A stretch of DNA of 63,995 nt, filler included, from Acidimicrobiia bacterium (GCA_046759765.1; 14 parts of 14 records of this genome joined end to end with filler, not necessarily neighbours in it), one strand, 5' to 3'; shown: positions 51,601-54,600, counted from the whole stretch's first letter. Program-made: the numbers.

Positions 51601-54600
51601 TCAAGTATTCAGTCACAACTTTGGAGCCAGGAGCCAGCGACGTCTTGACCCATGGCTTCGGTTCTAGACCTCTGGCGCGGGCGTTTCGAGCGAGCAGGCC
51701 GGCGGCGACCATCACATCGGGATTCGATGTGTTCGTGCACGACGTGATTGCGGCGATAACGACCTTGCCGTGATCCAGCTCGAACGTATGCCGGTCATAG
51801 GTCACAGGAACTCCGTTGAGGTCTCGTCCGGACGCACGCACGGGTCCACCTTCGTCTTCCCACGTCTCGACAGTGCTTTGGACGGTGCCGGCCGACTTTC
51901 CGAAGGTGTTGACCAGCTCCCAGCGCCACGATGACTTCACGGCGCTGAGATCGACTCGGTCCTGGGGACGTCGGGGCCCGGCCAGCGAAGGCTCCACTGT
52001 GGCCATGTCGAGCTCGAGGTGAGCCGAGTACGTTATCTCGTGGCTGTCGTCCCTCCAGAGTCCCTGCTCCCGGTAGTACTGCTCCACCGTGTCGACCAGA
52101 TCGTCGGGCCGGCCCGTTAGGCGCAGATAGTCAAGCGTTTGCTCGTCAACCGGGAAAAAGCCGGTGGTGGCGCCGTACTCAGGGGCCATGTTGGAGATGG
52201 TGGCCCGGTTGGCGACCGGCATATCCGAAAGGCCTGGCCCGTAGAACTCGACGAATCGCCCTACGACTCCGAACTCGCGGAGCATTTGGGTTACCCGCAA
52301 CACCAGGTCGGTGGCAGTTGCTCCTTGCTTCAGCCGGCCTGTCAATCGGAATCCCACCACCTCCGGCAAGAGCATGTAGATGGGCTGACCGACCATGACG
52401 GCCTCGGCCTCGATTCCACCTACTCCCCATCCGACCACGCCGAGTCCGTTGATCATTGTGGTGTGCGAGTCGGTGCCTACGAGGCTGTCCGGGTAGAGGT
52501 AGGTGCCGTCGTCCCAGACCACCCTCGCGAGGTACTCGAGGTTGACCTGGTGGACAATTCCGGTGGCGGGCGGCACGACTCGCAGGTTGTCGAAGGCGGC
52601 CTGGCCCCATTTGAGGAGTTCGTAACGCTCTTGGTTGCGCTCGAACTCTTTCTGGCTGTTTATGCGCAGGGCGATACCGCTCCCGAAGGCGTCTACCTGG
52701 ACCGAGTGGTCGACGACCAGGTCGCTCTGCACGCGCGGATTGACCTTTAGAGCGGCCTTCTCGTCACCGGTCATCCTCACTATGGCGCTCCGCATGGCGG
52801 CCAGGTCGACTACCGCGGGGACGCCAGTGAAATCCTGAAGGACGACGCGGCCCGGAATAAACGCAATCTCTTGGTCGCCCACCTTGGACGCGTCGTAGGA
52901 CGCCAGAGCTTCGACGTCCTCGTCTGTGACGATCCTCCCGTCGTGACTGCGCAAAGCCGATTCGGCCAGCACCCGAATGGAGTAGGGCATCCGATCGATG
53001 TCACCAAAGTCACGGAGCGCTTCGAGCTTGGCGATCGTGCGTTTGCCGAGAGGAGTGTCGAGTTCAGCGCGCGCCGAGAACGGATCAGTCGCCACCATCC
53101 GAGTGTACCGAGGGCCTTGAGCCGCGCCCTCGTCTGCTTCACAGCATTCCGGCTAGGTTCTCCCGGATGCGCCGCCTGGGGAGTGGGTTCGCGATGGTCG
53201 CTCTGGTCGTCAGCGCCTGCGGAGGGGGAGCAGTGTCGACCACCGCGACCCCAACCGCGGCTCCGACCAGCGTCGCCACTTCGCCGCCGACGACCACGCC
53301 ACCTCCAACGACGGAGGCGCCTACAACGACCGCAACCACTGAGCCTGTTCCTACTACCACCCTAAAGACGGAGATCTCCGTGCAGGGATCGGATGACTTC
53401 GTCGGCCATACTGGGAATGCGCTGGCGCTGCTTCAGGAACGAGCTGTTTCTTATTACGAACAGGTGTTCACGTACATCGACACGATCAAGTCCGTTCCGG
53501 CAGGATCCGGAATGCACGTCGAGACCAAGATCTTCGATGTCGGTGACGAGACCGCCTACGCCCCGGGCTACAACCTGACGCAGCAGGTCGCCTGGTACGC
53601 CGGGGCGATGGCGCACGACTCATGCCACAGCCGGCTCCACGCCAATGGAGAGCCACACAGAGGCAAAGCTGCGGAGATCGCGTGCCTCGAAGACCAGCTC
53701 ATGGCTCTCCAGTCCATGGGCGCGACGCGGCGCTTCGTTGACTACGTGCAAGGTCTCATCGACGGCGCCGACGATCCGGAGAACCAGTACTGGAACGACC
53801 CTAACCGCCACTGGTAAAGGTCTAGGCGCTGGCTCAGCGCGCCGAGATGCTGACCGGTACCTCCGTGACGCACTCCTCTTCGAGTCTCCGATGGGGATAG
53901 ATCTGAGTGGTCACGTCCTGGTGCAGAACCTCCATCATCCCTGCGACGATCCCCTGATCGAGCGAGCAGATCAGGTCGGGGTGGTCGGTCGCAGTGGTAC
54001 CGAAGGGGCAGTGGTTGGTGATCAGCCGCTCGCCCTTCGTGTCGGGAGCCATGGTGAACCCGACACCCGACATGGCTTTCGCCACCGATTTCACGGCCGC
54101 CTCGAAGCCTGAGTCGTCGGGAAACTCGAGGCGCCGAGCCAGTTCCCGGCCATAGTCCTGGCCCACCTCCATCGCCACCGCACCTACGTTCTCCGGTGCG
54201 ACACGCTCAACCACACGGACGAGTAGCTCGGAGAGAAGGTCGTATCGCTGTGCAGGAAAGTGGAGATCGATCTCCTTACTAGTGGCCTCGTAGGACTTGG
54301 CGGGTCGCCCCGCTCCGGTCTCCTTCTTGGCCGTTCGCTTGCGGCTGGACACCTCGACATACCCATCCGATGCCAGACGATCGAGATGGTGACGAGCCAC
54401 ATTGGGATGGATCGAGAAGGCCTCGGCCACGTCCGACACGGTCACCGGGTCGGACGTCTCGCGGATCATCAAGTAGATCCCGCGCCTCGTCGCATCGCCT
54501 AGTGACGATGCCAGATCGGCGAGTGTGCGGTCAAGCTGGCTTGGATCCACTACTGAATAGGATCGATCAAGGTCTCACTATAGTTTCGGACACCCCCAAA

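What a model noticed while it worked through the whole genome (the two positions that open the first line are those of the whole stretch)
53834..54469. Dispersed SufR regulon: a stand-alone SufR and its 28-bp operator ahead of eight scattered Fe-S/sulfur-transfer promoter [...]
g02531 (no Pfam row) is a SufR-type repressor (wHTH, GRP AT-hook, three C-terminal Cys) that lies away from all suf genes, divergent from an mrp gene. Its predicted operator ATTWnCACTAY-N4-RTAGTGnWAAT precedes sufB (C37:12110), sufD-Rieske-sufC (C37:6630), sufC-sufS-sufU (C161:5057), nfuA (C1:33357), mrp/iscA (C173:1257), moeZ (C12:22030) and two extra sufB copies (C236:843, C239:1680).
Evidence so far: PWM scan: the 8 sites score 25-40 bits, next genome hit 15.5; each ranks in the top 8 when left out. 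Site ahead of sufB in 17 of 29 relatives; all 17 hold the g02531 ortholog, 11 of the 12 without the site lack it, whereas Rrf2 is in 38 of 41. Sites before sufD, sufC, mrp/iscA, nfuA recur in 5 relatives, control 0. sufR-mrp pairing in 27 of 27 loci. Core and A/T flanks fit the M. tuberculosis SufR site ACACT-N5-TGTGA (bioRxiv 10.64898/2025.12.26.696629, passages, call 31).
(Added by a program. Inside this text positions count along the whole contig: they may not be those of the stretch shown here. "Call 12" and the like, gene names such as g00115 and contig names such as C1 are that model's own, and its searches are not shown. The text may have been shortened before it was handed on; [...] marks where a part breaks off. 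The agent that wrote the report below was given it as the finding of a first reader that could run no searches.)

Follow-up and report, generated by a model that had tools for sequence, protein, structure and literature searches.

The report
Acidimicrobiia iron-sulfur and iron-uptake repressor
A little-studied group of bacteria appears to run its iron-sulfur assembly genes with its own iron-sulfur-sensing repressor, a cousin rather than a true member of the SufR family, and in one branch this repressor also seems to control iron uptake, often where the usual iron regulator is missing.

Summary
The palindromes are real, but the regulon holds six sites here, not eight: the two extra sufB contigs come from co-binned relatives. 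The gene (53834-54550, 238 aa) is a COG2345 SufR-like protein, not a SufR ortholog. It has RHH and an invariant Asp where SufR has RRH and Glu, and the tree rejects a clade with sufB-adjacent SufR (AU p=0.0006). It probably lies about 7.5-20 kb from the suf pieces, not far away.

The operator (AATTT-CCACTA-N6-TAGTGG-AAATT) is very likely its site. It overlaps the regulator's own promoter in 25 of 28 loci from other Acidimicrobiia orders and follows the regulator's presence. IdeR, Rrf2 and Fur profiles do not fit.

New here: in this order the operator also precedes iron uptake (FTR1 in 18 of 19 genomes, FbpA, imelysin) and sseA/sufE. In other orders FTR1 lacks it (0 of 27) and carries IdeR-like boxes. 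Many site-bearing genomes lack DtxR/IdeR, so it works like RirA in a different fold.

No binding or cluster test exists, and independent losses are few. The scan had not noted this protein before; it had noted another Acidimicrobiia COG2345-type regulon with a different operator.

The parts
53834..54550 (-). COG2345 (SufR-like) repressor, 238 aa, GTG start. N-terminal wHTH (about residues 17-90) with RHH 53-55 and AT-hook GRP 81-83; dimerisation helices; C-terminal V4R/TRAPPC3-like sensory domain with Cys181, Cys195, Asp198, Cys227.
   Evidence: ORF; Pfam HTH_20 E 8e-9; invariant columns; AF2 pLDDT 73; C-domain matches PoxR/DmpR (Z 13.0, rmsd 3.3, 133 aligned) and TRAPPC3/Bet3; hhalign to a sufB-adjacent SufR 98.1%, 24% identity
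54302..54310 (-). AT-hook Gly81-Arg82-Pro83
   Evidence: invariant in 31 of 31 aligned orthologs; its role is inferred from the SufR cryo-EM preprint
53957..54010 (-). Cys181-Pro ... Cys195-x-x-Asp198: predicted cluster ligands, with Asp where SufR has Glu and ArnR has His. The third Cys227 lies at 53870-53872.
   Evidence: C181, C195 and D198 invariant in 31 of 31; SufR and ArnR ligands; cluster binding not tested
54577..54584 (.). Self-complementary ACTATAGT, read as a -10 box shared by the divergent regulator and mrp promoters
   Evidence: ACTATA[GC]T upstream of 33 of 41 own-order orthologs; promoter role inferred
54597..54624 (.). Decayed operator (left half only, -2.3 bits) at the place where relatives carry an intact one, between the shared -10 and the mrp start
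54622..55700 (+). mrp/ApbC Fe-S carrier ATPase with an N-terminal DUF59 (SufT-like) domain; runs off the contig
   Evidence: Pfam PF10609 and PF01883; 55-base overlap with C54
51340..53098 (-). N-terminal part of aconitase A; the rest starts contig C161, which carries the sufC operator. It links the regulator to the suf region.
   Evidence: Pfam; in-frame overlap; single aconitase; acnA beside the regulator in relatives
53167..53817 (+). Predicted lipoprotein-like ORF between acnA and the regulator; no family hit; not shown to be part of the system
1257..1284 (.). Operator (19.3 bits) between the divergent second mrp (14 nt away) and iscA/erpA (30 nt away); the only intact operator inside this window
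   Evidence: the same site in G002, G048, G049, G057, and none in G008-G010
67..1242 (-). Second mrp/ApbC paralog (45% identical to the first)
1315..1671 (+). A-type Fe-S carrier (IscA/ErpA family, PF01521)

Best explanation
The gene encodes the Acidimicrobiia Fe-S homeostasis repressor, from a COG2345 subfamily distinct from SufR and ArnR. Inferred mechanism: a dimer, each protomer holding a [4Fe-4S] cluster by Cys181, Cys195, Cys227 and probably Asp198. It clamps a 28-bp operator, with the two AT-hooks in the A/T tracts and the RHH helices on the CCACTA-N6-TAGTGG core. The operators overlap or adjoin -10 boxes, so holo-protein represses. When iron or sulfur is short, or clusters are damaged, the apo form lets go. 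Class-wide targets are the separately promoted pieces of a broken-up suf operon (sufB; sufD-Rieske-sufC; sufC-sufS-sufU) plus the regulator/mrp pair. In the window's order the regulon has grown to iscA/mrp2, sseA/sufE, moeZ and iron uptake (FTR1, FbpA-type binding protein, imelysin). In this genome it holds six sites: sufB, sufD, sufC2, nfuA, iscA/mrp2, moeZ. Shown: the sites, their placement, their co-occurrence and the protein's anatomy. Inferred: binding, the cluster, repression and the signal.
For: Autoregulatory position: a PWM trained only on own-order sufB sites finds a site of 13 bits or more directly upstream of the ortholog, over its TAGAAT -10 box, in 25 of 28 loci from other orders (loci chosen by me from the ranked list). 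It finds none at 8 paralog loci or 16 sufB-adjacent SufR loci. Own order: 20 of 40 at 5 bits or more, against 0.4% of genome windows; G042's ortholog is flanked by two sites.
Co-occurrence at sufB in 54 relatives: regulator and site 33, regulator only 5, site only 2, neither 14 (nearly the same split with the own-genome PWM). Both 'site only' genomes are assembly gaps. All 5 'regulator only' genomes keep sites elsewhere. G010 shows a clean deletion between mrp and acnA.
Exact pattern: 104 matches in 42 regulator genomes (control 8); 9 in 19 without the regulator (control 4), 7 of them in the two gap genomes.
FTR1, not used in training: 18 of 19, the miss lacking the regulator; FbpA has no site in 5 of 5 regulator-less genomes.
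Operators of sufB-adjacent SufRs have the same 28-bp A/T-tract geometry, which the preprint ties to COG2345 AT-hooks. The fold matches the relatives named for SufR.
Against: No binding, cluster or expression data. On a SufB tree only 2 well-supported independent contrasts exist (5 on all branches); none runs against the reading, but they cannot reach significance. This genome and G001 lack an intact autoregulatory site. Orthologs in G013, G024 and G044 keep only one of the three Cys, yet their sites persist. In M. tuberculosis SufR a Glu-to-Asp change at this ligand position loses the cluster. The geometry comparison was seeded with the published core and favoured A/T-rich flanks, so it is partly built in. 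3 of 28 other-order loci, and G161's two FTR1 loci, lack the site. Not every transcription factor of the genome was profiled.
Confidence: 0.8

Rival explanations
1. Same regulator and operator, but the signal is not Fe-S cluster supply: it senses NO or O2 like ArnR, binds another metal or cofactor, or acts without a cluster.
For: The clade groups with non-SufR COG2345 paralogs. ArnR is an NO/O2-responsive [4Fe-4S] member. Asp replaces the Glu ligand. One lineage lost two Cys but kept the regulon.
Against: Targets are Fe-S assembly, sulfur relay and iron import, with no NO-detoxification gene among the sites annotated. Cys181, Cys195 and Asp198 are invariant in 31 of 31 aligned orthologs.
Confidence: 0.12
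2. The palindrome belongs to a DtxR/IdeR iron repressor, which lies divergent from FTR1 or fbpA with the site between them in several relatives.
For: Site between a DtxR-family gene and an iron-uptake gene in G001, G004, G025, G033, G043, G049, G053, G059. Suf plus iron uptake is a typical iron regulon.
Against: PF02742 is not found in this genome or in 19 site-bearing relatives (G002, G003, G006 are 100% complete) and is found in 15 site-less ones. A separate IdeR-like box lies beside the palindrome, and the same locus has no palindrome in regulator-less G029 and G040. Independent pairs show no link.
Confidence: 0.03
3. An Rrf2 (IscR/RirA-type), Fur-family or other untested factor binds the palindrome, and the COG2345 gene is only a target that is lost when the regulon is lost.
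For: Rrf2 and Fur regulate suf and iron uptake elsewhere. The genome has three Rrf2 and one Fur. An Rrf2 gene lies within the suf region of G013 and G044.
Against: No Rrf2 over the cut-off in site-bearing G015, G038, G045, G047, while site-less genomes have it. The single Fur has 56-69% orthologs in 4 of 5 site-less genomes. The operator geometry equals that of SufR operators.
Confidence: 0.05

Closest known systems
SufR of Actinomycetia and cyanobacteria (COG2345; bioRxiv 10.64898/2025.12.26.696629, PMC8371249, PMC8593673)
   Same: wHTH + GRP AT-hook + dimerisation helices + TRAPPC3/MopR-like sensory domain with three Cys; a palindromic operator with A/T tracts about 18 bp apart over the -10 box; autoregulation; control of suf genes.
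   Different: Separate clade (AU p=0.0006); RHH for RRH; invariant Asp for Glu; core CCACTA-N6-TAGTGG for CGCAAC-N6-GTTGCG, with negative cross-scores; gene paired with mrp and acnA, not placed before sufB; many dispersed targets, whereas reviews call SufR dedicated to the suf locus.
ArnR of Corynebacterium glutamicum (COG2345; PMC12343034)
   Same: Non-SufR COG2345 [4Fe-4S] repressor with three Cys and more than one target promoter.
   Different: ArnR has His at the fourth-ligand position and represses narKGHJI and hmp; this one has Asp and Fe-S/iron targets. ArnR itself was not in my tree.
RirA of Rhizobiales (Rrf2 family; PMC1698941, PMC11672702)
   Same: Works like it: a [4Fe-4S] repressor that covers iron uptake (fbp and others) and suf.
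   Different: Unrelated fold (Rrf2 against COG2345) and operator; RirA is proven by experiment, this is predicted; the iron-uptake arm is confined to one order.
IdeR/DtxR of Actinomycetota
   Same: Shares iron-uptake targets; its box sits beside this operator where both regulators exist.
   Different: Senses Fe2+ directly (recalled); different box; not found in this genome or in 19 site-bearing relatives.

Membership tests
COG2345 SufR-like regulators | N-terminal wHTH with a GRP AT-hook in the wing | tested here: met
   HTH_20 hit; G81-R82-P83 invariant; model
COG2345 SufR-like regulators | C-terminal TRAPPC3/MopR-like sensory domain with three Cys and a metal-binding fourth residue | tested here: met
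   C181, C195, C227, D198; PoxR/DmpR/Bet3 matches Z 12-13; hhalign to SufR 98.1%
COG2345 SufR-like regulators | Binds a [4Fe-4S] cluster as a homodimer | not testable with these tools
   needs spectroscopy
SufR (strict) | RRH motif in the recognition helix | tested here: not met
   ARHH here and in most orthologs, ARYH in two; RRH in most sufB-adjacent SufRs; motif
SufR (strict) | Glu as fourth cluster ligand (C-x-x-E) | tested here: not met
   C-x-x-D invariant in 31 of 31; Glu strictly conserved in SufR
SufR (strict) | Gene immediately upstream of, or divergent from, sufB | tested here: not met
   divergent from mrp in 67 of 70 loci; sufB about 20 kb away here (inferred), 31-37 kb in four relatives, far away in other orders
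SufR (strict) | Operator core CAAC-N6-GTTG | tested here: not met
   35 sufB sites score at most -3.2 on the SufR PWM; SufR sites score -26 or lower on this PWM
SufR (strict) | One clade with sufB-adjacent SufR | tested here: not met
   separated by a 100/99 branch (47 rows; 8 of 55 dropped as near-copies or poor rows); AU p=0.0006
SufR (functional sense) | Represses suf genes and its own promoter | tested here: inconclusive
   operators at suf promoters and at its own promoter; repression itself untested
ArnR | His at the fourth-ligand position; nar/hmp targets | tested here: not met
   Asp198; targets; ArnR features
RirA | Rrf2 fold | tested here: not met
   PF02082 20.7 bits, below its cut-off of 30, HTH part only; the C-domain is V4R-like

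The most novel reading that the evidence does not exclude
A non-SufR COG2345 lineage took over SUF control across Acidimicrobiia independently of SufR, using a Cys3-Asp cluster site. In the window's order it captured the iron-uptake genes from IdeR and became the main iron regulator of the families in which DtxR/IdeR is not found: a RirA analog in an unrelated fold. In a few lineages (G020, G033, G043, G053) it has dropped sufB and kept iron uptake, and in another (G013, G024, G044) it works with a single Cys.
Probability: 0.55. Interest if true: 0.78.

Novelty: new variant of a known kind. Interest (0 to 1): 0.64.

Why it matters
[quoted passage not shown] This gives a third subfamily a defined operator and regulon across a whole bacterial class. 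It predicts an Asp cluster ligand at the very position where the preprint leaves the role of the non-Cys ligand open. It also shows a regulon expanding from Fe-S assembly to iron uptake alongside loss of IdeR, paralleling RirA. Each part can be tested with one small protein and a 50-bp oligonucleotide.

Tried and rejected
- Eight-member regulon: rejected; C236 and C239 duplicate several single-copy genes at 89-95% aa. C301, C226 and C218 (distant sufB/iscA, sufD/sufS, nfu) also look foreign and carry no site.
- Core match to the M. tuberculosis ACACT-N5-TGTGA site: the larger repeat given in PMC8371249 aligns with the CAAC-type half-sites of other SufRs, not with CCACTA.
- nfuA as a conserved target: only G000 and G001.
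- DtxR/IdeR, Rrf2 and Fur as binder: see rivals.
- The pattern with 1 mismatch did not separate from its control at genome level; only the exact pattern did.
- The first tree held wrongly framed ORFs and was rebuilt.
- Phylogenetically independent test: too few contrasts.
- No PDB sequence match; the SufR cryo-EM entry was not listed in the fold searches, which excludes nothing.
- Rfam: nothing at E up to 0.1 in 7 loci.
- No RNA holder listed. Logan contigs laid on C161 run over both of its ends in runs X2 and X3, but the letters beyond are not shown, so the joins stay inferred.
- The HTH_20 search was uninformative.
- Dimer and cluster geometry were not modelled.
- The S. avermitilis SufR paper was not available to me; I recall that it links SufR to siderophore output (recalled, not checked).

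Full report
LOCUS. The window is a string of short contigs of an Acidimicrobiia MAG (G000; 92% complete, 2.4% contaminated). The finding lies on C185 (window 51340-55700). The regulator ORF is 53834-54550 (-), 238 aa. It is divergent from mrp/ApbC and followed by a lipoprotein-like ORF and the first part of aconitase.

THE SITES ARE REAL. All eight palindromes are at the stated places. Left out one at a time from the six non-duplicate sites, each ranks 4-9 in the genome. A PWM from 30 non-redundant sufB sites of relatives (own family and unpublished genomes excluded; sites picked with the own-genome PWM) has the consensus AATTTCCACTATCCGGATAGTGGAAATT. It ranks the eight sites 1-8 (19.3-31.1 bits, next 15.3); 20 shuffled PWMs give at most one hit at 18 bits or more. 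The sites end 4-30 nt before the start codons and overlap or adjoin TAnnnT boxes, which fits repression.

SIX, NOT EIGHT, AND NOT FAR AWAY. G000 has four sufB matches where nearly all relatives have one. On C236 and C239, sufB is 85.6% and 81.5% nt-identical to the C37 copy, and the neighbouring ferredoxin and nuoB are duplicated elsewhere in the bin at 90-94% aa. These are co-binned relatives. The real set is sufB; sufD-Rieske-sufC; sufC2-sufS-HIT-sufU; nfuA; iscA/mrp2; moeZ-like. The one aconitase is split in frame between C185 and C161, and sufC2 is split at its Walker A motif between C161 and C37. G001 has the same sufD-sufC/sufC2 layout on one contig. So the regulator probably sits 7.5-20 kb from the suf pieces. 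This is inferred; one search did not show the joining letters.

WHO BINDS IT. (a) Upstream of sufB in 54 of 60 relatives (6 lacked a usable start): regulator and site 33, regulator only 5, site only 2, neither 14. Without unpublished G004 and G015 the first count is 31. In G057 mrp runs off its contig where the regulator would lie, and G049 (70% complete) lacks the whole locus. G010 has mrp and acnA divergent with no regulator between them. The five 'regulator only' genomes all have sites elsewhere. (b) The exact degenerate pattern gives 104 matches in 42 regulator genomes (reversed control 8) and 9 in 19 others (control 4), 7 of them in G049 and G057. (c) Orthologs of 36-45% identity occur across the class. 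In 28 fetched loci from other orders the gene is always divergent from mrp, and in 25 the operator lies directly before it, over a TAGAAT box. It also precedes sufB in 7 of 7 scorable genomes, and sufD and sufC. It is absent from 8 paralog loci and 16 SufR-sufB loci. In the own order a weaker copy (5 bits or more) is present in 20 of 40 loci; it has decayed here and in G001. (d) Against: kin are not independent. A SufB tree gives only 2 supported contrasts (5 in all), none discordant but not significant.

RIVALS. The site also lies between a DtxR/IdeR gene and iron-uptake genes in 8 relatives. But PF02742 is not found in G000 or in 19 site-bearing relatives and is found in 15 site-less ones. 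An IdeR-like box (consensus recalled, not from a call) sits beside the palindrome, and regulator-less G029 and G040 have the same locus without the palindrome. Rrf2 above the cut-off is missing in four site-bearing genomes and present in site-less ones. Fur is in 61 of 61, and this genome's only Fur has close orthologs in 4 of 5 site-less genomes. Other factors were not profiled.

NOT SufR PROPER. According to the preprint (bioRxiv 10.64898/2025.12.26.696629; I read parts 1-4 of 6 of the text, not its supplements), the GRP hook and three Cys are shared by the whole COG2345 family, whereas SufR has RRH and a strictly conserved Glu ligand, and E195D loses the cluster. Here the motifs are RHH and C-x-x-D, with Asp198 invariant in 31 of 31 aligned orthologs. 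In a 47-row tree a 100/99 branch separates sufB-adjacent SufRs from this clade, which lies with other COG2345 paralogs; holding the two together is rejected (AU p=0.0006). Operators of sufB-adjacent SufRs (9 distinct sites from 16 loci; search seeded with the published core and favouring A/T flanks) read AATTT-CGCAAC-N6-GTTGCG-AAATT: same frame, different core, negative cross-scores. The model (pLDDT 73) shows a wHTH plus a PoxR/DmpR/TRAPPC3-like domain, the same structural relatives that the preprint names for SufR.

IRON UPTAKE. Annotating sites in relatives showed FTR1, an FbpA-type ferric-binding protein (best PDB hits are ferric-binding proteins), imelysin, an ABM monooxygenase, sseA/sufE pairs, moeZ and iscA/mrp2. 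A systematic test on FTR1 found it in 19 of 61 genomes; 18 have the site 34-74 nt upstream, and the miss (G029) lacks the regulator. Eleven of the 18 have no DtxR-family hit. Seven further own-order FTR1 loci gave 5 sites. In other orders 0 of 27 FTR1 loci from regulator-bearing genomes have it within 3 kb; in 24 of the 27 the best IdeR-consensus match lies within 140 nt of the gene. FbpA has no site in 5 of 5 regulator-less genomes. G000 itself has no FTR1, FbpA-type or IdeR hit, so this arm is not seen in the window's own genome. sufD has the site in 12 of 15 regulator genomes and 0 of 4 others (some loci were fetched because of a site). nfuA has it in only 1 of 16.

MECHANISM. By analogy with SufR and RirA (passages), the holo dimer binds and represses; shortage of iron or sulfur, or cluster damage, releases it; SUF output reloads it. 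Shown: the sites, their placement, the profile and the anatomy. Inferred: cluster, binding, direction and signal. Orthologs in G013, G024 and G044 keep one Cys and still have sites, which this model does not explain.

LITERATURE. Seven searches listed no paper on this regulator, this operator or iron regulation in Acidimicrobiia; COG2345 occurs in 2 papers. I saw passages only of PMC8371249, PMC12343034, PMC8593673, PMC1698941, PMC11672702, PMC13421787 and PMC11995493. They describe SufR as dedicated to the suf locus (plus co-transcribed ftrC), with no other targets known in C. glutamicum. Subscription papers, RegPrecise, Cheng 2020 and the preprint's dataset of 326 COG2345 proteins were not seen and may bear on novelty. 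The scan's index held no look-alike of this protein. One unchecked note describes another Acidimicrobiia COG2345-type regulon with a different operator, which is absent from G000.

VERDICT. A real, class-wide regulon; regulator assignment likely (0.8); a new variant of the SufR-like kind, more interesting for its iron-uptake arm than for dispersal of suf genes. Interest 0.64.

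Noticed in passing
G000 contigs C236, C239, C301, C226, C218 (outside the window; L046, L250, L415, L416): The bin holds contigs of other organisms: two near relatives (sufB, ferredoxin, nuoB duplicates) and more distant sufB/iscA, sufD/sufS and nfu copies. Rare-gene findings on short contigs of this MAG need care.
   Followed up: partly
L096 (G013), L098 (G044), L099 (G024): Orthologs that keep only the Cys of the Cys-Pro motif while operators at sufB, sufD, FTR1 or fbpA persist; G013 and G044 have an Rrf2 gene inside the suf region. 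Recalls the Cys-less IscR of Rhodobacteraceae.
   Followed up: partly
L194 (G042:C179:19235 and 20271): The ortholog is flanked by operators on both sides, the second before a ferredoxin gene; mrp is not adjacent. On co-binned C236 and C239 the same ferredoxin family is divergent from sufB across the operator.
   Followed up: partly
upstream of sufB in L080, L054, L063, L049, L045, L076, L040: A conserved pyrimidine-rich element inside a GC-rich inverted repeat in 7 of 55 loci by my pattern (similar text also seen in G008, G019, G020, G030), mostly in genomes without the operator; no Rfam hit in the loci tried.
   Followed up: partly
sufB of G004, G009, G021, G027, G080, G142: SufB interrupted in frame by a long insert, apparently an intein, at two different positions.
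   Followed up: no
window 54577-54584: One self-complementary hexamer pair could serve as the -10 box of both divergent promoters; conserved in 33 of 41 own-order loci.
   Followed up: partly
window 60519-63818 (-), contig C201: 1099-aa subtilase with cadherin-like repeats on a short contig whose style differs from its neighbours; possibly from a co-binned organism.
   Followed up: no
   Followed up: partly
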